From: a virus
Taxonomy: Duplodnaviria > Heunggongvirae > Uroviricota > Caudoviricetes
Virus record (IMG/VR): IMGVR_UViG_2526164662_000021
Coordinates: 32,001 to 96,000 of that record
DNA length: 64,000 nucleotides
Reading direction: 5' to 3' (one strand)
Within the stretch, counting starts at the first letter, position 1; each line of letters starts with the position of its first letter. Position numbers and translations under genes: made by a program. The notes under the pieces are model-generated. The model made no database searches and was not told where the DNA came from. It saw only the letters and a list, made by a program, of their open reading frames with translations. Positions 11,291-63,859 of this stretch are shown one piece after another.

Positions 11291-11422
11291 TTAATAGTCA
11301 TTGATCGCAAAGGCGTAAACTTGCCAAAGGTATTTCGTATAATCGGTACAAATCTCCTTTACGCTTGATGCTGCATTAACAGTCCCAGCCATAAATAATA
11401 ACGATAGTAATAGTTTTCTCAT
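11291..11422 (-). CDS. Small secreted peptide (sim locus, 43 aa)
   Basis: ATG at 11420-11422 (reverse complement) with GGTGAGG RBS; translation MRKLLLSLLFMAGTVNAASS...; stop overlaps next start (TAATCCATG). Confidence 0.35.
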   Translation of the reverse strand: MRKLLLSLLFMAGTVNAASSVKEICTDYTKYLWQVYAFAINDY

Positions 11423-11518
11423 TATAACCTCACCTGCCTTATAACCCATTTAGGGTACATATTTTCGCCTTTAAAAAAAAGAGGTTATTAGATCCAATTG
11501 TGTATTTATTAAGCAGAT

Positions 11519-11535
11519 AATGCTCTAATAAATTT
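11519..11535 (+). promoter_or_regulatory. C1-repressor operator-like 17-mer (immI)
   Basis: AATGCTCTAATAAATTT, 16/17 to the P1 C1 operator consensus ATTGCTCTAATAAATTT. Confidence 0.65.
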
Positions 11536-11734
11536 GTATTTTTAAGTCACGAATGCTATCTTTTCGCATCATATTGACCTTTTAATCGTTCAGGCTTATA
11601 GTTCCGCCGTCGTAGCAAATTCTGCGACCGGGTTTAGCAGCCTGAATGATTGTGCGGACAGCCGCAGATATCCGATATTGCGGTATTTTTGTGTCCGTAA
11701 AACCGCGTTACGCCCAAATTATGGTGGGGCGTGA

Positions 11735-11795
11735 TGGGGAGGCTTCGGCCTGCTGGTTTCACAATCGCCAGTCTGCTAACCCCGTCACGTCCTGC
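11735..11795 (+). ncRNA. c4-like antisense RNA element (candidate)
   Basis: TTCACAATC (11758-11766) and CTGCTAACC (11773-11781) are reverse-complementary to GTTTAGCAG (11801-11809) and GATTGTGA (11832-11839, overlapping the icd RBS GAGG), in antiparallel order. Confidence 0.4.
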
Positions 11796-11849
11796 CACCT
11801 GTTTAGCAGCGGGTAGCAGGTTGTTAAACCTGATTGTGAGGCCGTAACT

Positions 11850-12071
11850 ATGGTTAATGCCAATCCTTGCGCACGCCCAGAATTCATCTGGCGTTTCTAT
11901 TCCTGTAAAAAACACCACTATCACTTCGTTATCGCAGCAACTGAAGACGAAGCACGCTCTCAATTGCCTGATGGCCCCTGCATTTTTACTGCCCGTTTTT
12001 CAACTAACTCGCGCAATTCACTTAGTTACTGGAGCCTCCCCTTCTCTGCCGACGTTCAGGGGGGTTTATGA
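11850..12071 (+). CDS. icd: Icd-like cell division inhibitor
   Basis: 73-aa ORF (PEFIWRFYSC...HYHFVIAATEDEARSQL); stop overlaps ant start (ATGA); paralogue at 61645-61866. Confidence 0.65.
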   Translation: MVNANPCARPEFIWRFYSCKKHHYHFVIAATEDEARSQLPDGPCIFTARFSTNSRNSLSYWSLPFSADVQGGL

Positions 12072-13111
12072 AAAAACCTCTCGTCACCCGTAATGACATA
12101 GCCGAAGCGATCGCCCTGCATACTGCCTGTATACCGACACGGGAGATCCCCGGCGCAATTGCCAACTATTTCATGATAACCAGGCGTTTTTATACCCGAA
12201 CAGATAAGGCTGTGATCAACAGGCTACTGATAGCCGAGATCAGGGATTATTTGATTGAACAAGGACGTCTACGTTACGCAACGGTGGCAGCAGAAATGAG
12301 AAAGGAGGCACATAGAATGACCAGTAATAATTTGAATGTTAAAAAACCAGCACCTGTTGCTTCAGCAACGCCAGCACCAGCCGTGAATGTCATCCCCACC
12401 ACCGGAGACACAATCGACAGCCTGACACTGTTAAAGATGGTCAATGAAGCGCGTAAGTTATGTGGGGAACCAGAGGTTCGGAACAACAAATTCATCGAAA
12501 AAATACTCGACGAATTAGAAGGTGAGGACGGTTACACAAAAAGTGCAACCGTGCCGCCAGGTGGCGGTACGCCTATGGTTGTCATAACCATGACCTACAA
12601 ACAAGCCCTGCGAGTCGCCGCGCGCGAATCGAAAGCGGTCCGCCGTTCGCTGATCGACAAACTGGAAGAATTGCAGCAGGCAAACTCCCCTACCCCATCG
12701 ATCCCCCAAACATTACCAGAAGCCCTACGCCTGGCTGCCGAGTTGGCAGAACAGAAATTGCAGCTGGAACAACAGCTGGTGGCCGCAGCCCCTAAAGTCG
12801 ATTTTGCCGACCGGGTATCAGTGGCTAATGGAATCCTGATCGGGAACTTTGCAAAGGTCGTTGGACTTAAGCAAAACGCCCTTTTCTCATGGTTGCGCCA
12901 GAACGGCATTCTCATGGCTTTTGGTGCGCGCAAAAACGTACCGCGCCAGCAGTACATTAACGCCGGGTATTTCACGGTGAAAGAAGTGGTGCTGGATGAT
13001 GAAAATGGCTACCAGATACGGCTGACGCCCCAATTAACGGGTAAAGGCCAGCAGTGGTTAACTCGCAAGCTACTTGATGCTGGTTTGTTAAAACCAGTAG
13101 CAATAGGTTAA
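12068..13111 (+). CDS. ant: Antirepressor Ant with C-terminal KilAC domain
   Basis: 347-aa ORF translationally coupled to icd; C-terminus AAAPKVDFADRVSVANGILIGNFAKVVGLKQNALF...GYFTVKEV... matches KilAC antirepressor domain. Confidence 0.7.
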   Translation: MKKPLVTRNDIAEAIALHTACIPTREIPGAIANYFMITRRFYTRTDKAVINRLLIAEIRDYLIEQGRLRYATVAAEMRKEAHRMTSNNLNVKKPAPVASATPAPAVNVIPTTGDTIDSLTLLKMVNEARKLCGEPEVRNNKFIEKILDELEGEDGYTKSATVPPGGGTPMVVITMTYKQALRVAARESKAVRRSLIDKLEELQQANSPTPSIPQTLPEALRLAAELAEQKLQLEQQLVAAAPKVDFADRVSVANGILIGNFAKVVGLKQNALFSWLRQNGILMAFGARKNVPRQQYINAGYFTVKEVVLDDENGYQIRLTPQLTGKGQQWLTRKLLDAGLLKPVAIG

Positions 13112-13118
13112 CAAAAGA

Positions 13119-13148
13119 AAAAACCTGCCAGCAAACTGGCAGGTTTCT
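13119..13148 (+). terminator. Rho-independent terminator after ant
   Basis: CCTGCCAG-caaa-CTGGCAGG hairpin followed by TTTCT. Confidence 0.55.
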
Positions 13149-13188
13149 GAGCAGATCGACCAACCCGATCTGGATCGAGTCAGAAAAA

Positions 13189-13205
13189 TTTGCTCTAATA
13201 AATTT
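13189..13205 (+). promoter_or_regulatory. C1 operator-like 17-mer upstream of kilA
   Basis: TTTGCTCTAATAAATTT (16/17). Confidence 0.65.
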
Positions 13206-13274
13206 CGTTTTCTAAGTGCAAAGAATCACCATTCCGAGCTGGTGATTGAAGGTTGATGCAAATTTGGAGAAAAA

Positions 13275-14075
13275 ATGCAACAAACATTCAATGCGGATAT
13301 GAATATATCAAACCTTCATCAAAATGTCGATCCTTCAACCACTCTGCCTGTTATTTGTGGTGTTGAAATTACGACCGACCGCGCTGGCCGTTACAACCTT
13401 AATGCTCTACACAGAGCGAGCGGACTCGGTGCCCATAAAGCGCCAGCTCAATGGCTAAGAACGCTGTCAGCCAAACAGCTCATCGAAGAGCTTGAAAAAG
13501 AAACTATGCAGAATTGCATAGTTTCGTTCGAAGGCCGTGGCGGCGGCACTTTTGCCCATGAATTGCTCGCTGTGGAGTACGCAGGCTGGATTTCTCCCGC
13601 GTTTCGGCTGAAGGTAAACCAGACATTTATCGACTATCGAGCCGGAAGATTACAACCTGCTATTCCGCAGAGTCTCCCTGAAGCTCTCCGTTTGGCTGCC
13701 GACCTGGCAGAGCAAAAGCAACGGCTGGAGCAAAAAATGCTTATGGATGCACCTAAAGTCGAATTCGCCGAACGCGTTGCTACCGCCAGCGGGGTTCTAA
13801 TCGGCAACTATGCCAAAGTGCTCGGCCTGGGCCAAAACTATCTCTTCACCTGGTTGCGTGATAACGGAATTCTGATCGCAACCGGTGAACGCAGGAACGT
13901 CCCCAAACAAGAATACATATCCCGTGGGTATTTCACCCTTAAAGAAACCGTGATCGATACAAGCAATGGAAGCAGGATTTCTTTCACGACTCGTATAACC
14001 GGCAAAGGTCAGCAGTGGCTTATGAAGCGATTGCTTGATGCTGGTGTGCTGGTGCCTGTCGCGGCGACGCGCTAA
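13275..14075 (+). CDS. kilA: KilA (KilA-N domain plus KilAC domain)
   Basis: 266 aa, same length as P1 KilA; N-terminal KilA-N-like segment (ICGVEITTDRAGRYNLNALHRASGL...LLAVEYAGWISPAFRL); C-terminal KilAC-like segment. Confidence 0.75.
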   Translation: MQQTFNADMNISNLHQNVDPSTTLPVICGVEITTDRAGRYNLNALHRASGLGAHKAPAQWLRTLSAKQLIEELEKETMQNCIVSFEGRGGGTFAHELLAVEYAGWISPAFRLKVNQTFIDYRAGRLQPAIPQSLPEALRLAADLAEQKQRLEQKMLMDAPKVEFAERVATASGVLIGNYAKVLGLGQNYLFTWLRDNGILIATGERRNVPKQEYISRGYFTLKETVIDTSNGSRISFTTRITGKGQQWLMKRLLDAGVLVPVAATR

Positions 14076-14104
14076 CAGACGTAGTAAGAACCACCAGCAT
14101 TGTA

Positions 14105-14950
14105 ATGCTGGCTAAAGTCACTTTCCTGAGCTGTATAACGATGAGCGATTTTACTTTTTCTGGCTATGAATTGGCCTGCTTTGTAACACACTCCGGTCTA
14201 TCCCGTAGCGCCGGGCATATCCTGTCGCAATGTGCAAATCTCGCGGCAACAACCAGTGAATACTTCATTCACAAGCCTCACCGCCTGCTCGCGGCAGAAA
14301 CTGGTTATAGCCAATCAACCGTCGTTCGTGCATTCCGTGAAGCTGTAAACAAAGGAATCCTGTCTGTAGAGATTGTTATCGGCGATCACCGTGAACGTCG
14401 CGCTAACCTGTACCGGTTTACACCATCCTTTTTGGCCTTCGCACAACAAGCCAAAAATGCGCTGATTGAAAGCAAATTAAAGATCTCTTCAGCGGCAACC
14501 AAGGTTAAAGCTGTTCTCGCTAAGACATTGGCTTTATTTAATTTTTTATCCACACCCCCATGTCAAAATGATACCCCCTCCCCCTGTCAGGATGACGTGG
14601 CAATAAAGAATAAGAAGTCACAAGTTAAAAAAACAAAAAGATCAGTTTCCGGCGGTGCCGGAACGACCAGACTCAAAAAATTGACTTCATGGATCGCTGA
14701 GGCAAAAGCAAAGGCTGACAATCTGCGGTTATCCAAAAAACGCGCTCAAAAACATGAGTTCAAGCAGAAAGTAGAGGCGGCAGCGCGGAAATATGCTTAC
14801 CTGAAGGACAAGCGTTCTCCTGATATTGGCGGGATATCAAACTTCGATAATCTGCCGCATTGCATGACGGTAAACGAAGCTCTTAATGCGGTTTTAGCCA
14901 AAAATAAAGATAACGAACAATGGGGTATACCGGCAGGATTCAGAGGGTGA
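14105..14950 (+). CDS. repL: Lytic replication protein RepL-like
   Basis: 281 aa, same length as P1 RepL; directly downstream of kilA; HTH-like region (YSQSTVVRAFREAVNKGIL). Confidence 0.65.
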   Translation: MLAKVTFLSCITMSDFTFSGYELACFVTHSGLSRSAGHILSQCANLAATTSEYFIHKPHRLLAAETGYSQSTVVRAFREAVNKGILSVEIVIGDHRERRANLYRFTPSFLAFAQQAKNALIESKLKISSAATKVKAVLAKTLALFNFLSTPPCQNDTPSPCQDDVAIKNKKSQVKKTKRSVSGGAGTTRLKKLTSWIAEAKAKADNLRLSKKRAQKHEFKQKVEAAARKYAYLKDKRSPDIGGISNFDNLPHCMTVNEALNAVLAKNKDNEQWGIPAGFRG

Positions 14951-15212
14951 TAGATTGCTCTAATCTGGAGTCACCTGGCGTTTTCAGTTTGAGGTCGGAG
15001 ATGCAATCTGATTTTTTACAGTTAGCGATCGCTTTTGCAGGGCATCTTTGAGACATATCCATATATAAAAACCCAAAGCCAGATCAAAACTTGTACTGAT
15101 AAAAACACAGCTAACCATCACAACTTGTAACGTTTATAATGAGTAAAAGAGTGATACATTGCTACTTTTACATATTTTTGACTCAATTCATGGATAGTAA
15201 TGGAGATGCATA

Positions 15213-16268
15213 ATGACTTATGCTGGCACACAAACAGCAGATAACGCCGGGGATACCATGAAATCGTATGCTATTTGGAATAATAAAGGTGGCGTAGGAA
15301 AGACCTACTTATCTTTCGCTATGGCCTGTGAATACGCAAGGCAAAATCCAGAAAAGCGTATTATTTTTGCAGATATGTGTCCGCAGGCTAACTTATCTGA
15401 AATATTGCTCGGCGGTAACGGTACTGGTGCTGCTAACCTCGCGAGCTTAATTCAACAACGAAAAACTGTCGGTGGGTACTTTGACAGAAGAACTCGCAGC
15501 CCCCACATGCTTACCGGTTCAGAAACAAGTTTCTTAATTCATGTCTCTGAAATTAACGGGCATGTCCCTGACAATGTATTTTTGATTGCAGGCGACCCAA
15601 GCCTGGAAGTTCAGGCGCAAGTAATCAATCAGTTAAGCAGCGTAAACTTACCAGTTGACTCATGGAAAAGCATCCACCTGTGGCTACGAGATTTGCTTGT
15701 TGCATGTGCACAACAACAAGGTATCGAAGAAACCATTTGCTTTATTGATTGCAACCCCAGTTTCTCTGCCTATACCGAACTATCACTGATAGCAGCAAAT
15801 GCAATTATAATACCTTGCTCAAGTGATGGTTCTTCGGCTCGAGCAGTGGATAACCTAAGCCAGTTGGTTTATGGCGTTGGAGTACAAAACGATTATCGTT
15901 CTGTTAACTTTTACGATCGGTGTCAACAGTTTGGTCTAGCGGTTCCTGTCATTCATTCTCTAGTTTTTAATCGTTCGACAGAGTATGACAAACGAGCAAG
16001 TAAAGCGTTTTCGGCAATGTTCGACGAAATCAGGGATAGAGCTGAAAATCTGCGGACGAATAAACCAACAGCGTTCCAAGGCGGAAATTTAAAAACGTTT
16101 ACTGTGCCAGATAACCATTCCGTAGCTATAGTATCTTCCCATCTAGGAAGACCTCTATTTGATATAAAACCCGGCAGATATCAGATCCATGACACTGAGC
16201 CACAAATCAATAATGAACCATTAGAAAGATATGGTGCAGCAATTGAACGTCTTGTTCAGAGTTTATAG
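15213..16268 (+). CDS. Orphan ParA/MinD-family P-loop ATPase
   Basis: Deviant Walker A AIWNNKGGVGKT; ParA-like FADMCPQAN and Walker B-like FIDCNPSFS; alternative start at 15258 (MKSYAIW...); no adjacent ParB. Confidence 0.6.
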   Translation: MTYAGTQTADNAGDTMKSYAIWNNKGGVGKTYLSFAMACEYARQNPEKRIIFADMCPQANLSEILLGGNGTGAANLASLIQQRKTVGGYFDRRTRSPHMLTGSETSFLIHVSEINGHVPDNVFLIAGDPSLEVQAQVINQLSSVNLPVDSWKSIHLWLRDLLVACAQQQGIEETICFIDCNPSFSAYTELSLIAANAIIIPCSSDGSSARAVDNLSQLVYGVGVQNDYRSVNFYDRCQQFGLAVPVIHSLVFNRSTEYDKRASKAFSAMFDEIRDRAENLRTNKPTAFQGGNLKTFTVPDNHSVAIVSSHLGRPLFDIKPGRYQIHDTEPQINNEPLERYGAAIERLVQSL

Positions 16269-34332: not shown

Positions 34333-34408
34333 GATGGTGTAGCTCAGCGGTTAGAGCGGTTGACTGTTAATCAACGGGTCGATGGTTCAAATCCATCCAC
34401 CATCGCCA
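34333..34408 (+). tRNA. tRNA-Asn (anticodon GTT)
   Basis: Manual cloverleaf: acceptor GATGGTG/CACCATC, D-stem GCTC/GAGC, anticodon stem GTTGA/TCAAC, loop CTGTTAA, T-arm GATGG-TTCAAAT-CCATC, encoded CCA. Confidence 0.85.
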
Positions 34409-34410
34409 AT

Positions 34411-34486
34411 GCCGGTTTAGCTCAGTTGGTAGAGCGCCTGCCTTGTAAGCAGGATGTCAGCGGTTCGAGTCCGTTAACCGGCACCA
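34411..34486 (+). tRNA. tRNA-Thr (anticodon TGT)
   Basis: Manual cloverleaf: acceptor GCCGGTT/AACCGGC, anticodon stem CCTGC/GCAGG, loop CTTGTAA, T-loop TTCGAGT, encoded CCA. Confidence 0.85.
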
Positions 34487-36691: not shown

Positions 36692-36767
36692 GGCCCTTTA
36701 GCTCAGTGGTTAGAGCTGGCGACTCATAATCGCACGGTCACCGGTTCAAGTCCGGTAGGGGCCACCA
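36692..36767 (+). tRNA. tRNA with CAT anticodon (Ile2-lysidine type or Met)
   Basis: Manual cloverleaf: acceptor GGCCCTT/AGGGGCC, D-arm GCTC-AGTGGTTA-GAGC, anticodon loop CTCATAA, T-arm ACCGG-TTCAAGT-CCGGT, encoded CCA. Confidence 0.8.
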
Positions 36768-58606: not shown

Positions 58607-59800
58607 GTGACCTGGGACGATCACAAGAAGAATTTTGCTCGCCTGGCGCGAGATGGTGGTTACACCATCGCACAGTATGCCGCCGAGTTTAATCTTAACC
58701 CTAATACCGCACGTCGTTATCTCCGTGCCTTCAAAGAAGACACCAGGACTGCGGACAGCCGCAAGCCAAATAAGCCAGTCAGGAAGCCACTAAAAAGCAT
58801 GATCATTGATCACTCTAATGATCAACATGCAGGTGATCATATTGCGGCTGAAATAGCGGAAAAACAAAGAGTTAATGCCGTTGTCAGTGCCGCAGTCGAG
58901 AATGCGAAGCGCCAAAATAAGCGCATAAATGATCGTTCAGATGATCATGACGTGATCACCCGCGCCCACCGGACCTTACGTGATCGCCTGGAACGCGACA
59001 CCCTGGATGATGATGGTGAACGCTTTGAATTCGAAGCTGGCGATTACCTGATAGATAACGTTGAAGCGCGGAAGGCCGCGCGCGCTATGTTGCGTCGGTC
59101 CGGGGCCGATGTTCTGGAAACCACTCTTCTTGAAAAGTCTCTTTCTCATCTCCTTATGCTGGAGAACGCCAGGGATACGTGTATTCGCCTGGTGCAGGAA
59201 ATGCGCGATCAGCAAAAAGACGATGATGAAGGTACTCCGCCTGAATACCGTATCGCGAGCATGCTAAACAGCTGTTCCGCGCAGATAAGCAGCCTGATCA
59301 ACACCATTTACAGCATCCGGAATAACTATCGAAAAGAAAGCCGGGAGGCGGAAAAGCACGCTTTGTCTATGGGGCAAGCTGGCATTGTTAAGCTGGCATA
59401 CGAACGAAAGCGTGAAAATAACTGGTCAGTGCTGGAAGCGGCTGAATTCATCGAGGCGCATGGAGGAAAAGTGCCGCCCCTGATGCTGGAGCAAATCAAA
59501 GCCGATCTGCGTGCTCCTAAGACCAATACCGATGACGAGGAAAACCAAACAGCATCTGGCGCTCCATCACTTGAAGATCTGGATAAAATCGCGCGAGAAC
59601 GGGCCGCCAGCCGCCGCGCTGATGCCGCATTGTGGATTGAGCATCGTAGAGAAGAAATTGCCGATATCGTCGATACAGGCGGTTATGGTGATGTCGATGC
59701 GGAAGGCATATCAAACGAAGCATGGCTTGAACAGGATCTGGACGAAGACGAGGAGGAAGACGAAGAAGTTACCCGCAAACTGTACGGGGATGATGATTAA
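58607..59800 (+). CDS. pacA: Terminase/pacase small subunit PacA
   Basis: GTG start with AAAGGAAG RBS; 397 aa ([10 protein letters not shown]...); contains the pac site; acidic C-terminus. Confidence 0.85.
58800..58986. promoter_or_regulatory. pac packaging site (clustered TGATCA/G hexamers with GATC Dam sites)
   Basis: Four TGATCA at 58800, 58808, 58819, 58834 and TGATCG/TGATCA at 58930, 58942, 58953, 58981, inside pacA. Confidence 0.75.
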
Positions 59801-61284
59801 TGGCCAGAAGTTGCGTAACGGACCCACGTTGGCGCGAGCTGGTGGCGCTATATCGTTATGACTGGATTGCGGCCGCTGATGTGTTGTTTGGGAAGACACC
59901 AACCTGGCAGCAGGATGAGATCATTGAGTCCACGCAGCAGGACGGCAGTTGGACAAGTGTGACCTCCGGCCATGGTACTGGTAAGTCGGATATGACGAGT
60001 ATTATTGCAATACTCTTCATCATGTTTTTCCCCGGCGCTCGCGTCATTCTGGTCGCTAACAAAAGACAGCAAGTCCTTGATGGTATTTTCAAATACATAA
60101 AGAGCAATTGGGCTACTGCTGTTAGCAGATTCCCGTGGTTGTCGAAGTATTTCATTCTTACAGAAACGTCTTTTTTTGAGGTGACTGGCAAGGGTGTTTG
60201 GACAATATTGATAAAGTCCTGTCGCCCCGGAAATGAGGAGGCGTTGGCTGGTGAACACGCCGATCATCTCTTGTATATCATCGACGAAGCGTCGGGTGTG
60301 AGTGATAAAGCATTCAGTGTGATAACAGGTGCGCTGACCGGTAAGGATAACCGTATTCTGCTTCTTTCCCAGCCTACGCGACCTTCAGGCTATTTCTACG
60401 ATTCACACCACAGACTAGCTATTCGCCCGGGAAATCCTGATGGATTGTTTACTGCGATAATACTGAATAGTGAAGAATCTCCGCTTGTAGATGCAAAATT
60501 TATACGAGCAAAACTTGCGGAGTATGGCGGTCGTGATAACCCCATGTACATGATCAAAGTACGTGGTGAATTTCCCAAATCGCAAGATGGCTTTCTTCTT
60601 GGTCGTGATGAGGTTGAGCGGGCGACGCGGCGAAAGGTCAAGATTGCCAAAGGATGGGGCTGGGTTGCATGTGTTGACGTTGCTGGTGGCACAGGACGAG
60701 ATAAGTCCGTTATTAATATCATGATGGTGTCCGGCCAGCGAAATAAACGCCGTGTAATCAACTATCGTATGCTGGAATACACAGACGTTACAGAAACGCA
60801 GTTAGCCGCCAAGATTTTCGCAGAATGTAACCCAGAACGGTTCCCGAACATAACCATAGCTATTGATGGCGATGGCTTGGGGAAATCGACGGCTGATCTG
60901 ATGTACGAACGCTATGGTATTACCGTCCAGCGTATCCGCTGGGGTAAAAAGATGCACAGCCGTGAAGATAAAAGCCTTTATTTCGATATGCGCGCTTTCG
61001 CGAATATTCAGGCGGCAGAAGCTGTAAAATCAGGGCGTATGCGGCTTGATAAGGGGGCTGCGACTATAGAGGAAGCATCAAAGATACCGGTCGGGATAAA
61101 TTCCGCAGGTCAATGGAAGGTGATGTCAAAGGAAGATATGAAGAAAAAACTCAACCTGCACTCACCGGACCATTGGGATACATATTGTTTCGCTATGTTG
61201 GCGAACTATGTTCCCCAAGATGAAGTGCTTAGCGTCGAAGACGAAGCGCAGGTTGATGAAGCTCTGGCATGGCTTAATGAGTAA
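59800..61284 (+). CDS. pacB: Terminase/pacase large subunit PacB
   Basis: 494 aa; start overlaps pacA stop (TAATG); Walker A-like GHGTGKS and Walker B-like [11 protein letters not shown]. Confidence 0.85.
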
Positions 61285-61288
61285 AAAA

Positions 61289-61305
61289 CTTGCTCTAATA
61301 AATTG
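61289..61305 (+). promoter_or_regulatory. C1 operator-like 17-mer upstream of second icd-ant module
   Basis: CTTGCTCTAATAAATTG (15/17). Confidence 0.55.
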
Positions 61306-61436
61306 TGTTTTTTGACTGCCGATGTTACATTGAACCTGACCTCTTGCGCCTTGAGGCATTTTCGGTTTATGCTTATCAGGCACCTCATTAAAACGGGTGC
61401 CGGGATTGGAACCCCGGATAATGTCAAAGGCGACAC

Positions 61437-61460
61437 AGACGCCAAAAGCGTCTTTTTTTG
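61437..61460 (+). terminator. Terminator/attenuator-like hairpin in leader
   Basis: AGACGC-caaaa-GCGTCT followed by TTTTTTT; an analogous hairpin plus T-run sits in the first module leader at 11662-11690. Confidence 0.45.
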
Positions 61461-61534
61461 TGTCATGCCATCGCACGGCCATACGTAGCGTTTAGCTCAG
61501 AGATCAATGGTAGTGCTGGCTGGGCTGCCGAAAG

Positions 61535-61592
61535 GCAGGCCGGTTCCCTTTGACGCCGGTAGTTCCAACCCAGTCAGTGCTACCGCCATTGA
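61535..61592 (+). ncRNA. c4-like antisense RNA element of second module (candidate)
   Basis: CCTTTGAC (61548-61555) is reverse-complementary to GTCAAAGG (61626-61633, overlapping the icd2 RBS AAGGAGG); GCTACCGC (61578-61585) pairs with GCGGTAGC (61608-61615). Confidence 0.35.
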
Positions 61593-61644
61593 GATTGGAA
61601 CCTCACGCGGTAGCTCCTTAACTTAGTCAAAGGAGGCTGCCATT

Positions 61645-61866
61645 ATGGCTACTATCCCTACCCCAACTCATCCTGAATTTATCTGGCGCTTTTACTCCTG
61701 CCAGAAACGTCACTATCACTTCGTTATTGCACCGACAGAAGATGAGGCTCGCTCTCAGCTTCCTGATGCACCCTGTATTTTCTCCGCCCGTTTTTCTACT
61801 GATTCGCGCAATTCTCTCAGTTACTGGTGCCTCCCTGTTAACGCTTCTGCTCAGGAGGGACTATGA
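61645..61866 (+). CDS. icd: Icd-like protein, second copy
   Basis: 73 aa (PEFIWRFYSCQKRHYHFVIAPTEDEARSQL), about 75 percent identical by eye to the copy at 11850; coupled to downstream ant-like gene. Confidence 0.6.
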   Translation: MATIPTPTHPEFIWRFYSCQKRHYHFVIAPTEDEARSQLPDAPCIFSARFSTDSRNSLSYWCLPVNASAQEGL

Positions 61867-62975
61867 GAACGTCATTAGTCACCCGTGAAGAGATGATTGA
61901 GGCAATTGAACAGCACACTGCCTGTATCAGTACCAGGGATATACCAGGCGTTATGGCCAACTACTTCATGATCACCAAACAACTTTACCGGAGAAAGGAC
62001 AAGAACGCTGTTCACCGCATTCTGTTGTCTGATATCCGCGAATACCTGCTCGAACAGGGTCATCTGAATTACGCAACCGTCGCAGCCGAAGCACGCAAGG
62101 AGGCACACAGAATGAAAGCAACTAACGTTAAATCAGAAAAAATTCATGCACCTTCAGTTCAGGAATCGGAGCTGGTGGTTGTTCAGAATCAGTCTGATGA
62201 AATTCCCGTTCTGGAATGGCTGGGAGTGCGTGTAGTGACAACTGAGACTCTTGCTAAAGGGTATGGGACCGATGAAGCGAATATTCGTAAAAATTTGTCT
62301 CGCAACCCCGATCGCTTTGAAGAAGGTAAGCATTACTATCTCTTAACTGGTTCAAAATTAAAGGAATTTAAAATGCTAGTGACTATTAGTCACTTGGTTA
62401 GCAAATATACAAGTCAGGTAATTCTCTGGGCCGAGCGCGGAGCGGCACGCATGTCTAAGATCGTGGACACAAATGAAGCGTGGGCATTCTTTGAAAAACT
62501 GGAAGACAGCTACTTCCGACAAAAAGAACAGCAACCGATCGCAATCCCCCAGACGCTTCCAGAAGCTCTGCGCCTGGCTGCCGAACTGGCTGAACAAAAG
62601 CAGCTTCTGGAACAGAAAGCCCACCAGCTAAATCAGCAGCTGGTGGCCGCCGCTCCTAAAGTCGATTTTGCCGACCGGGTATCAGTAGCTAAAGGGATCC
62701 TGATTGGGAATTTTGCAAAGGTTGTTGGACTTAAGCAAAACGCGCTGTTTGCCTGGTTACGGGAGAACGGCATCCTGATAGCGTCCGGTGGACGTAAAAA
62801 TGTGCCGTTCCAGCAGTACATCAATGCGGGGTATTTCACGGTGAAAGAAGTGGTGCTGGATGATGAAGATGGCTACCAGATACGGTTGACGCCTCAATTA
62901 ACGGGTAAAGGCCAGCAGTGGTTGACGCGTAAACTGCTCGATGCTGGCTTGTTAAAACCGGTGGCGGCTGAATAA
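61863..62975 (+). CDS. ant: Antirepressor Ant-like protein with KilAC domain, second copy
   Basis: 370 aa; N-terminus parallels Ant at 12068 (HTACI.TR.IPG..ANYFMIT); C-terminal KilAC domain nearly identical to Ant1; extra central insert. Confidence 0.65.
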   Translation: MRTSLVTREEMIEAIEQHTACISTRDIPGVMANYFMITKQLYRRKDKNAVHRILLSDIREYLLEQGHLNYATVAAEARKEAHRMKATNVKSEKIHAPSVQESELVVVQNQSDEIPVLEWLGVRVVTTETLAKGYGTDEANIRKNLSRNPDRFEEGKHYYLLTGSKLKEFKMLVTISHLVSKYTSQVILWAERGAARMSKIVDTNEAWAFFEKLEDSYFRQKEQQPIAIPQTLPEALRLAAELAEQKQLLEQKAHQLNQQLVAAAPKVDFADRVSVAKGILIGNFAKVVGLKQNALFAWLRENGILIASGGRKNVPFQQYINAGYFTVKEVVLDDEDGYQIRLTPQLTGKGQQWLTRKLLDAGLLKPVAAE

Positions 62976-62980
62976 TGGAA

Positions 62981-63010
62981 GAATGCCCGGTTGATGCCGG
63001 GCATAATTTA
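62981..63010. terminator. Bidirectional terminator between ant2 and c1
   Basis: ATGCCCGG-ttgat-GCCGGGCAT hairpin with flanking A/T runs. Confidence 0.5.
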
Positions 63011-63859
63011 TTGCGCGCTTTCGGGGTTGTCGTTTACTGGCTGCCCCTTCTTGGTTTTACGGCTGCGTGTAACTGATGCGGCTGACTTAACCTTTTTCTC
63101 TTCGCGAGTGATGGCAATTTGTTTTTTTACATTTTCAATATCTGCCAGGCGATATATTTTTGCTTGCGGCCAGCGGTCGCAGATGATCGGTTCTATAGAG
63201 TCATAAAGGCTAAATTTTGCTTTCTCGAATTCACCGTTGATGATAATTCCATCACGGAGAGTTTCATCGCAGATAAACACACCACATAGCGGCACATGGT
63301 AACTAACTGATTTACCATCATTGTAGTTAGGGCTACTAGAAATGTAATGGACGCGCAGCATTGTTTCGCTAAAGCCGTGTACGCGCATACGGAATTTTTC
63401 ATCCTCCGGGTACTGCTTCATTAGCTCTTTTGTTGCTTCCAGGTTCTCTATGTATTTCGCACTGTGCTCATTGATCCCCGCGCTTTTCTGGATGCGAATG
63501 TCCTTATCAATCAGATGAATAATGCGGCCAGCGGTCATGTTGACGCTGTTCACAGCTTCTGTCTGATAAGTCGTAACCTTACGCACACCGCGAAGGATGT
63601 TAGGCACTGGATATAAAATAGTCTTTGGGATATTGAGGTCTGGGTACTGTTCCAGTTCCCGCGCCATTAAAGTCCATTTATCAATTTCAGCCTGAATGCT
63701 GTCCGTTTCTTTGAACGGCAGAACGACAACCGGGCGAACAGGACGACCGTCGCTGGCGGCATCAACGTGTTGGGCGCGTGCAACAGCTTTTTTTAGAAAG
63801 AGATCCCTGAAGCTGACGAACTCCTGGTACAGTTGTTCGCCGTAGACATAATTTATCAT
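63008..63859 (-). CDS. c1: C1 repressor of lysis (P1 C1-like)
   Basis: 283 aa (MINYVYGEQLYQEFVSFRDLFLKK...); GGAGGAGG RBS; operator-like 17-mer upstream; matching operator-like sites across the window. Confidence 0.85.
   Translation of the reverse strand: MINYVYGEQLYQEFVSFRDLFLKKAVARAQHVDAASDGRPVRPVVVLPFKETDSIQAEIDKWTLMARELEQYPDLNIPKTILYPVPNILRGVRKVTTYQTEAVNSVNMTAGRIIHLIDKDIRIQKSAGINEHSAKYIENLEATKELMKQYPEDEKFRMRVHGFSETMLRVHYISSSPNYNDGKSVSYHVPLCGVFICDETLRDGIIINGEFEKAKFSLYDSIEPIICDRWPQAKIYRLADIENVKKQIAITREEKKVKSAASVTRSRKTKKGQPVNDNPESAQ

What the first reader, a model, noticed from the sequence alone, without database searches (positions are those of the whole stretch)
11519..11850. c4-type antisense logic readable in the immI leader
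TTCACAATC (11758-11766) and CTGCTAACC (11773-11781) are reverse complements of GTTTAGCAG (11801-11809) and GATTGTGA (11832-11839), in antiparallel order. The last target overlaps the icd Shine-Dalgarno (GAGG at 11837-11840). This is the arrangement expected if a processed upstream RNA pairs with and occludes the icd RBS, as described for P1 c4.
Basis: partly seen in the sequence, partly recalled or inferred. Interest (0 to 1): 0.45.

Follow-up and report, generated by a model that had tools for sequence, protein, structure and literature searches.

The report
P7-type c4 antisense RNA switch

Summary
The window is a P1/P7-like phage-plasmid. Rfam's C4 model hits 11717-11802 (69.6 bits, cut-off 45) and its a1/b1 target model hits 11596-11648 (55.5 bits, cut-off 46.7). 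From the C1 operator to the icd start, the leader (11521-11860) is base-for-base identical to phage P7. P1 differs at exactly the six specificity boxes, always with compensatory changes. Across 28 distinct public leaders there are two 'a' alleles and five 'b' alleles. In every leader a1 = a2 = reverse complement of a', and b1 = b2 = reverse complement of b'. All cells in these helices are paired, and 6 of 8 b'-b2 pairs and 2 of 7 a'-a2 pairs change on both sides. Three small corrections apply. The a'/a2 9-mers match at 8 of 9 positions, with an exact core of 7 nt. The b'/b2 exact match is 8 nt. The Shine-Dalgarno GAGG lies at 11838-11841, not 11837-11840. Seen in passing: a second, orthogonal c4-icd-ant module at 61289-62975 that P1 and P7 lack, and a terminator-like hairpin between b1 and c4 that resembles the IsrK leader. 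Novelty: already known. Interest is low.

The parts
11519..11535 (+). C1 repressor operator Oc4 (formerly Op51), AATGCTCTAATAAATTT
   Evidence: Transferred from the P1 annotation through alignment A1. P7 annotates a C1 operator at the same place.
11534..11562 (+). Promoter P2c4 (formerly P51a)
   Evidence: Transferred from the P1 annotation. Identical to P1 here apart from one base (11549).
11574..11602 (+). Promoter P1c4 (formerly P51b): TTGACC, 17 nt spacer, TATAGT
   Evidence: Found independently by the promoter scan, 10 of 12 matches, at the position of P1c4 in the P1 annotation.
11609..11628 (+). First leader hairpin; probable 5' end of the P1c4 transcript
   Evidence: Paired in the Rfam c4-a1b1 and isrK alignments. 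100% of cells paired across 28 leaders (helix 1).
11634..11640 (+). a1 target box TTAGCAG, presented in the loop of hairpin 11629-11644
   Evidence: P1 annotation, Rfam RF03163 alignment and covariation with a' (helix 3).
11648..11654 (+). b1 target box GATTGTG
   Evidence: P1 annotation. Covariation with b': 6 of 7 pairs change on both sides (helix 4).
11661..11690 (+). Hairpin (11661-11684) followed by a run of five U (11686-11690); terminator-like and aligned to the IsrK terminator
   Evidence: isrK model alignment (43.7 bits, below the cut-off of 50), RNAfold and 92.5% of cells paired (helix 6). The simple terminator scan did not call it. Its function is inferred.
11723..11799 (+). Mature c4 antisense RNA, 77 nt, P7 specificity type
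   Evidence: Rfam C4 hit at 11717-11802, 69.6 bits. Ends transferred from the P1 and P7 misc_RNA annotation. Fold of -45.3 kcal/mol, z = -5.6. The 5' end reads GGU, matching the GGW motif reported at the RNase P site (PMC5320573).
11759..11766 (+). b' specificity box TCACAATC, in the loop of the second c4 hairpin
   Evidence: (I9, I13).
11773..11779 (+). a' specificity box CTGCTAA, in the single-stranded joint of c4
   Evidence: (I15).
11803..11809 (+). a2 target box TTAGCAG
   Evidence: P1 annotation. 100% paired with a', with 2 of 7 pairs changed on both sides (helix 5).
11832..11839 (+). b2 target box GATTGTGA, overlapping the icd Shine-Dalgarno
   Evidence: P1 annotation. 100% paired with b', with 6 of 8 pairs changed on both sides (helix 4).
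11838..11841 (+). icd Shine-Dalgarno GAGG
   Evidence: Read directly from the sequence. It lies 8 nt before the ATG at 11850.
11850..12071 (+). icd (73 aa); its translation is the step c4 blocks
   Evidence: ORF list, annotated as icd in P1 and P7. Its stop overlaps the ant1 start (ATGA).
12068..13111 (+). ant1 (347 aa), with the in-frame ant2 start at 12317; the antirepressor that c4 ultimately controls
   Evidence: ORF list, Pfam ANT/KilAC at 1.3e-30 and the P1/P7 annotation.

Best explanation
This is the immI leader of a P1/P7-like phage-plasmid, carrying the c4 antisense RNA gene in its P7 specificity version. The operon is transcribed from the C1-controlled promoters P2c4 and P1c4. The 77-nt c4 RNA (11723-11799) is cut out of the leader; in P1 and P7 RNase P makes the 5' cut. 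c4 folds into a long closing stem with two hairpins, which leaves b' (11759-11766) in a loop and a' (11773-11779) single-stranded. In trans, these two boxes pair with a2 (11803-11809) and b2 (11832-11839) on the same operon's mRNA. The b'-b2 duplex covers part of the icd Shine-Dalgarno, so icd is not translated. Because ant expression depends on icd translation, the antirepressor Ant is not made and C1 repression (lysogeny and superinfection immunity) holds. The box sequences set the immunity specificity. This element should be homoimmune with P7 and heteroimmune with P1 at immI. Shown here: the sequence, fold, family membership, context and covariation. Taken from published work on P1 and P7: processing, action in trans, and the coupling of ant to icd.
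For: Rfam hits above the gathering score: C4 69.6 bits (cut-off 45) at 11717-11802 and c4-a1b1 55.5 bits (cut-off 46.7) at 11596-11648. The fold exposes a' and b' (z = -5.6, 0 of 200 shuffles as stable). The leader is identical to P7 from the operator to icd, while P1 differs at exactly a1, b1, b', a', a2 and b2 with compensatory changes. The P1 and P7 records annotate operator, promoters, a1, b1, c4, a2, b2, icd and ant at the corresponding positions. Twenty-eight distinct public leaders carry 2 a-alleles and 5 b-alleles in 8 combinations, and the three copies always match. All cells in the four intermolecular helices are paired; 6 of 8 b'-b2 pairs and 2 of 7 a'-a2 pairs change on both sides; 0 of 500 shuffles reach the observed values; sliding the partners by 1-3 columns gives 0-1 such pairs. 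The c4 stems are almost invariant, so variation is concentrated in the specificity boxes. A second, divergent module in the same window repeats the logic with different boxes, and its variants also covary. Literature: c4 is a ~77-nt RNA processed by RNase P; b' partly occludes the RBS; four nucleotide differences separate P1 and P7 specificity (summarised in PMC5320573, citing Citron & Schuster 1990 and 1992 and Hartmann 1995). c4 represses Ant synthesis (PMC8546580, PMC8198154).
Against: Nothing in the data contradicts it. There are three limits. No RNA ends, processing or repression were measured for this element. Covariation cannot tell pairing in trans from pairing in cis within an unprocessed leader. 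The a'-a2 duplex is only 7 contiguous base pairs, and the b'-b2 duplex covers only the first 2-3 nt of the SD, so occlusion depends on the combined two-site complex, as reported for P1.
Confidence: 0.95

Rival explanations
1. The pairing acts in cis. In the unprocessed leader, a'/b' pair with a2/b2 of the same molecule to form a long-range structure that sequesters the icd RBS, and no free small RNA is needed.
For: All boxes lie on one transcript within 120 nt. Covariation fits cis or trans pairing equally well.
Against: In the fold of 11730-11850 the c4 domain closes on itself and does not pair with a2/b2. The c4 domain matches a family of processed stand-alone RNAs and starts with the GGU reported at the RNase P site (PMC5320573). 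Published genetics show c4 acting in trans, and that P1/P7 heteroimmunity depends on it (cited in PMC5320573 and PMC6906374). A purely cis structure would not explain the a1/b1 copies.
Confidence: 0.03
2. The complementarities are chance inverted repeats in a GC-rich structured leader and have no regulatory meaning.
For: A nested 8+7 nt inverted-repeat pair is seen in 21 of 1596 tiles of this window and 28 of 5000 shuffles, so such patterns do arise by chance somewhere in 64 kb.
Against: Three-way covariation across 28 leaders with no unpaired cell. Rfam hits above the cut-off. Identity with the experimentally studied P7 locus.
Confidence: 0.005
3. Translational occlusion at a2/b2 is only part of the mechanism. 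The main or an additional site of c4 action is a1/b1, just upstream of the hairpin and U-run at 11661-11690. Either c4 binding there promotes termination, as for P4 CI RNA, or a short terminated a1/b1 RNA titrates c4, as for IsrK in Gifsy-1.
For: The a1 and b1 boxes covary with c4 as strictly as a2 and b2 do, so they are under selection to pair. The leader aligns to the isrK model, terminator included (43.7 bits, E = 4e-8). The second module has a full isrK hit and a scanned terminator at the same relative place. IsrK is made by termination at that site and carries sequences complementary to the downstream processed RNA (PMC4825925).
Against: The isrK score for this leader is below the gathering cut-off. 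The simple terminator scan did not call the hairpin. c4 lies downstream, so substantial read-through must occur. No published P1 or P7 data for such a short RNA were found in the searchable library.
Confidence: 0.3

Closest known systems
c4 antisense RNA and immI leader of phage P7 (AF503408; Rfam RF01695 and RF03163)
   Same: The sequence is identical from the C1 operator through the icd start (window 11521-11860), so the a'/b' boxes and all four targets are the same. The region 11521-12100 is 99.3% identical. The order operator, c4, icd, ant1/2, kilA is the same.
   Different: The upstream flank differs. The window has P1-type simA/B/C on the minus strand (10165-11449), where P7 has upf50.0 and upf50.5. 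The switch from P1-like to P7-like sequence falls at the operator.
c4 antisense RNA of phage P1 (NC_005856, c4 at 48343-48419)
   Same: Same architecture, promoters, fold, 77-nt length, target layout and downstream genes; 95.9% identity over 651 bp.
   Different: Each of the six boxes differs by two bases, always compensatory: a is GACAG/CTGTC in P1 and AGCAG/CTGCT here; b is GTTAGTG/CACTAAC in P1 and GATTGTG/CACAATC here. This is the published basis of P1/P7 heteroimmunity.
IsrK / STnc1160 / AnrP locus of Salmonella prophage Gifsy-1 (Rfam RF01394; PMC4825925)
   Same: A leader RNA with two hairpins and a terminator that carries copies of the target sequences, followed by a processed ~80-nt RNA, a short ORF and a translationally coupled antirepressor gene. 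The window's leader aligns to the isrK model over its full length.
   Different: The score is below the family cut-off for this leader (43.7 against 50). The published IsrK model is activation of antirepressor translation by the short RNA, not repression by the processed RNA. The short ORF here is the conserved Icd protein.
CI RNA immunity of satellite phage P4 (seqA, seqB, seqC)
   Same: A processed leader-derived antisense RNA with complementary sites both upstream and downstream of itself (as described in PMC4825925).
   Different: The P4 CI RNA acts by causing premature transcription termination rather than by blocking an RBS. P4 sequences were not compared here.

Membership tests
C4 antisense RNA (Rfam RF01695; P1/P7 immI c4) | Covariance-model score at or above the curated gathering score | tested here: met
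   69.6 bits against a cut-off of 45, covering the full model 1-87, at 11717-11802.
C4 antisense RNA (Rfam RF01695; P1/P7 immI c4) | Fold with a long closing stem and two hairpins, b' in a hairpin loop and a' in a single-stranded joint | tested here: met
   The minimum-free-energy and centroid structures are identical at -45.3 kcal/mol, z = -5.6. All stem cells are paired in 28 leaders (helices 1-3).
C4 antisense RNA (Rfam RF01695; P1/P7 immI c4) | Two boxes complementary to two downstream targets, the distal one overlapping the RBS of icd | tested here: met
   a'/a2 is 7 nt exact and b'/b2 is 8 nt exact. b2 (11832-11839) overlaps GAGG (11838-11841), and the ATG is at 11850.
C4 antisense RNA (Rfam RF01695; P1/P7 immI c4) | A second copy of both targets (a1, b1) upstream of c4 (Rfam RF03163) | tested here: met
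   RF03163 scores 55.5 bits against a cut-off of 46.7 at 11596-11648. a1 is at 11634-11640 and b1 at 11648-11654.
C4 antisense RNA (Rfam RF01695; P1/P7 immI c4) | Compensatory covariation between the boxes and their targets among relatives (the basis of heteroimmunity) | tested here: met
   All cells are paired. Pairs changed on both sides: 6 of 8 (b'-b2), 6 of 7 (b'-b1) and 2 of 7 (each a helix). 0 of 500 shuffles reach the observed values, and slid controls give 0-1 such pairs.
C4 antisense RNA (Rfam RF01695; P1/P7 immI c4) | Operon context: C1 operator and sigma-70 promoters upstream, icd then ant1/ant2 downstream with overlapping stop and start | tested here: met
C4 antisense RNA (Rfam RF01695; P1/P7 immI c4) | Processing of a precursor to about 77 nt, with RNase P making the 5' cut | not testable with these tools
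   Only consistent features are visible: a GGU 5' end and a GCCACC 3' end at the positions annotated in P1 and P7 (PMC5320573).
C4 antisense RNA (Rfam RF01695; P1/P7 immI c4) | Repression of icd translation, and thereby of ant expression, in trans | not testable with these tools
   Known for P1 and P7 from the literature (cited in PMC5320573, PMC8546580 and PMC8198154). Inferred here from sequence identity with P7.
isrK Hfq-binding RNA (Rfam RF01394) | Covariance-model score at or above the gathering score for the 5' leader | tested here: not met
   43.7 bits against a cut-off of 50 at 11609-11690 (E = 4e-8). The second module's leader at 61380-61458 does meet it, at 62.6 bits.
isrK Hfq-binding RNA (Rfam RF01394) | Intrinsic terminator that ends a short RNA upstream of the processed RNA | tested here: inconclusive
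   A hairpin at 11661-11684 plus a run of five U is present and conserved, but the terminator scan does not call it. No RNA 3' ends are available.

The most novel reading that the evidence does not exclude
The immI leader of P1/P7-type phages may be a three-RNA circuit rather than a simple antisense switch. Transcripts from P1c4 that stop at the hairpin and U-run (11661-11690) would give a short IsrK-like RNA carrying a1/b1, which titrates c4. Alternatively, c4 bound at a1/b1 would drive termination there and so regulate its own synthesis. This phage would then carry two orthogonal copies of such a circuit (11519-13111 and 61289-62975), each with its own specificity drawn from a combinatorial pool of a and b alleles.
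Probability: 0.2. Interest if true: 0.4.

Novelty: already known. Interest (0 to 1): 0.1.

Why it matters
For the finding itself, the value is annotation. It identifies the immI immunity type of this phage-plasmid as P7-type, which predicts which related phages it excludes or coexists with. The system has been a classic example of antisense control since 1990. Two wider points are worth noting. The specificity boxes are the most variable part of an otherwise nearly invariant leader, and they reassort (2 a-alleles, 5 b-alleles), as expected for selection to escape or keep immunity. Some P1-like elements, this one included, carry a second, non-cross-reacting module. Neither point changes the mechanism.

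Tried and rejected
RNA duplexfold of the whole c4 against the flanking leader gave meaningless full-length duplexes because it ignores the c4 fold. It was replaced by box-level duplex energies. That small hairpin is not conserved in leaders with other b alleles, so no claim is made for it. The simple terminator scan did not call the hairpin at 11661-11684. The icd-based genome scan found only 7 loci, and the viral scan returned only close relatives, all at least 95% identical in Icd, so diversity comes from box alleles rather than from distant homologues. The Morganella locus L010 has an icd-like ORF but no similar leader, and it was not pursued. The primary papers (Citron & Schuster 1992, Heinrich 1994, Lobocka 2004, Gilcrease & Casjens 2018) are not held in the library. 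The mechanism is therefore cited through open-access papers that summarise them. I could not check whether the allele combinatorics or the leader terminator have been described before. Pfam has no model for Icd or C1.

Full report
**Observation.** TTCACAATC is at 11758-11766, CTGCTAACC at 11773-11781, GTTTAGCAG at 11801-11809 and GATTGTGA at 11832-11839. They are nested in the order b' a' | a2 b2.

Three details need correcting. The a'/a2 9-mers are complementary at 8 of 9 positions, with an exact core of 7 nt (CTGCTAA with TTAGCAG; I15). The b'/b2 match is exact over 8 nt (I9). The icd ATG is at 11850.

A nested exact 8+7 nt inverted-repeat pair arises in 28 of 5000 dinucleotide-preserving shuffles of 11700-11860 and in 21 of 1596 tiles of the window. 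The bare pattern would therefore not be convincing on its own in 64 kb.

**What it is.** An Rfam scan of the whole window gives a C4 antisense RNA hit at 11717-11802 (69.6 bits, cut-off 45). It also gives a hit to the model of the a1/b1 targets of C4 at 11596-11648 (55.5 bits, cut-off 46.7).

BLAST against phage genomes shows the window is a P1/P7-like punavirus. The closest plasmid record is an E. coli phage-plasmid from pig faeces, 99.6% identical over 9000-16000.

I aligned the leader with the annotated P1 and P7 records. From the C1 operator to the icd start, the window (11521-11860) is identical to P7. P1 differs at exactly the six specificity boxes, two bases in each, always compensatory:
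- a1/a2: GACAG in P1, AGCAG here.
- a': CTGTC in P1, CTGCT here.
- b1/b2: GTTAGTG in P1, GATTGTG here.
- b': CACTAAC in P1, CACAATC here.

Transferring the P1 annotation gives these window coordinates:

| Feature | Coordinates |
|---|---|
| Oc4 operator | 11519-11535 |
| P2c4 promoter | 11534-11562 |
| P1c4 promoter | 11574-11602 |
| a1 | 11634-11640 |
| b1 | 11648-11654 |
| c4 RNA | 11723-11799 |
| a2 | 11803-11809 |
| b2 | 11832-11839 |
| icd | 11850-12071 |
| ant1 | 12068-13111 |
| ant2 start | 12317 |

The promoter scan found P1c4 independently as TTGACC-17-TATAGT. The 77-nt RNA folds into a long closing stem with two hairpins, at -45.3 kcal/mol and z = -5.6. This leaves b' in a loop and a' in a single-stranded joint.

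I collected icd-linked leaders from one-genome-per-species contigs and IMG/VR viral contigs, and added P1, P7 and Ro157c2YLVW. The 88 leaders collapse to 28 distinct module-1 sequences.

These carry two a-alleles (AGCAG, GACAG) and five b-alleles (GATTGTG, GTTAGTG, ACTTACG, ACGAATG, ACTTGTG) in eight combinations. In every one, a1 = a2 = reverse complement of a' and b1 = b2 = reverse complement of b'.

The pair-counting tool gives the following:
- All cells are paired in the a'-a2, b'-b2, a'-a1 and b'-b1 helices.
- Pairs changed on both sides: 6 of 8 for b'-b2, 6 of 7 for b'-b1, and 2 of 7 for each a helix.
- 0 of 500 shuffles reach the observed paired fraction or covariation score.
- Sliding the partners by 1-3 columns leaves 0-1 such pairs.

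The c4 stems hardly vary, so variation is concentrated in the specificity boxes.

**Mechanism.** What is shown here is sequence, fold, family membership, operon context and covariation. The rest comes from published work on P1 and P7:
- c4 is cut from the leader to about 77 nt, with RNase P making the 5' cut at a GGW motif. The window has GGU at 11723.
- The a' and b' loops then pair with the mRNA. The b' duplex partly occludes the RBS, and four nucleotide differences are enough to separate P1 from P7 (PMC5320573, summarising Citron & Schuster 1990 and 1992, Hartmann 1995 and Heinrich 1995).
- c4 thereby prevents synthesis of the Ant antirepressor (PMC8546580, PMC8198154).

By identity with P7, this element should be homoimmune with P7 and heteroimmune with P1 at immI. 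Pairing in cis cannot be excluded by covariation. It is unlikely because the c4 domain closes on itself in the longer fold and because published genetics show action in trans.

**Seen outside the finding.**

1. *A second module.* The window has a second complete module between pacB (59800-61284) and c1 (63008-63859, minus strand). Its parts, in order:
   - A C1-operator-like site at 61289-61305.
   - An isrK hit above the cut-off at 61380-61458, with a scanned terminator at 61437-61453.
   - A C4 hit at 61503-61590 (77.1 bits).
   - An icd paralogue at 61645-61866, 73% identical to the first.
   - A 370-aa antirepressor with ORF6N and KilAC domains.

   Its boxes are quite different: a is TTGGAAC/GTTCCAA and b is GTCAAAGG/CCTTTGAC. 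They are laid out the same way, with b2 running into the AGGAGG SD, and variants of this module covary too. Box-level duplex energies are -9.7 to -15.3 kcal/mol for cognate pairs and -5.0 to -9.0 for cross-module pairs, so the two modules look orthogonal. P1 and P7 lack this module. RCS47 and JL22 have it at about 95% identity, without any RNA annotation. The gene insertion has been noted before (PMC6906374), as has a second c4/icd region in D6-like elements (PMC6799933).

2. *An IsrK-like leader.* Between b1 and c4 there is a conserved hairpin (11661-11684) followed by UUUUU. The leader from 11609 aligns over the full isrK model, terminator included, although below the cut-off (43.7 against 50 bits). 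In Gifsy-1 the homologous short RNA, IsrK, is made by termination at that site and is complementary to the downstream processed RNA (PMC4825925). The strict covariation of a1 and b1 shows they are selected to pair with c4. Whether they act as a decoy or as a termination control is open.

3. *A mosaic junction.* The sim genes upstream are P1-like while the leader is P7-type, with the switch at the operator.

**Verdict.** The feature is the already-known P7-type c4 antisense switch. Interest is low, and the side observations are modest leads.

Noticed in passing
window 61289-62975 (+), between pacB (59800-61284) and c1 (63008-63859, minus strand): A second complete c4-icd-ant module. It has a C1-operator-like site (61289-61305), an isrK hit (61380-61458, 62.6 bits) with a terminator, a C4 hit (61503-61590, 77.1 bits), icd2 (61645-61866) and a 370-aa ORF6N+KilAC antirepressor (61863-62975). 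Its a and b boxes differ from module 1 and appear not to cross-react with it. P1 and P7 lack it. RCS47 and JL22 have it without any RNA annotation.
   Followed up: partly
window 11609-11690 (+): The part of the leader upstream of c4 looks like an IsrK-type short RNA: a probable start just after P1c4, two hairpins, a1 in a loop, b1, then a conserved hairpin with a U-run. It scores 43.7 bits on the isrK model, below the cut-off of 50. It may end a short a1/b1-bearing RNA or be a site of c4-controlled termination.
   Followed up: partly
window 10165-11535: Mosaic junction. The simC/B/A homologues on the minus strand (10165-11449) and the sequence up to the operator are P1-like, while everything from the operator onward is identical to P7. 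P7 has different genes (upf50.0, upf50.5) upstream.
   Followed up: partly
loci L001-L090, leaders aligned as A3 (window 11590-11860): Public P1-like elements carry 2 a-alleles and 5 b-alleles of the c4 specificity boxes in 8 combinations. This suggests reassortment of the two boxes and many more immI immunity types than the classical P1 and P7. I could not check whether this has been described.
   Followed up: partly
L004 and L009 (JAFAFU010000019.1 and JAFAFU010000035.1): Two short contigs labelled 'MAG: Bacillota bacterium' carry icd modules. L004 is 99% identical to the window's first icd and L009 is a module-2-type locus. They are most likely mis-binned Escherichia phage-plasmid fragments.
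   Followed up: no
L010 (Morganella psychrotolerans, match at 1201-1329): An icd-like ORF (65% identity over 41 residues) whose upstream region has no BLAST similarity to either c4 leader. It may be regulated differently.
   Followed up: no
window 34333-34405, 34411-34483 and 36692-36764 (+): Three tRNA genes (Rfam tRNA, 64.7-74.9 bits), as expected for a P1-like genome.
   Followed up: no
window 11783, and alignment A3 columns 148/195: A C/U polymorphism in the 3' strand of the c4 closing stem (G-C in 16 leaders, G-U in 12) is completely linked to the a-allele: C goes with CTGCT and T with CTGTC.
   Followed up: no
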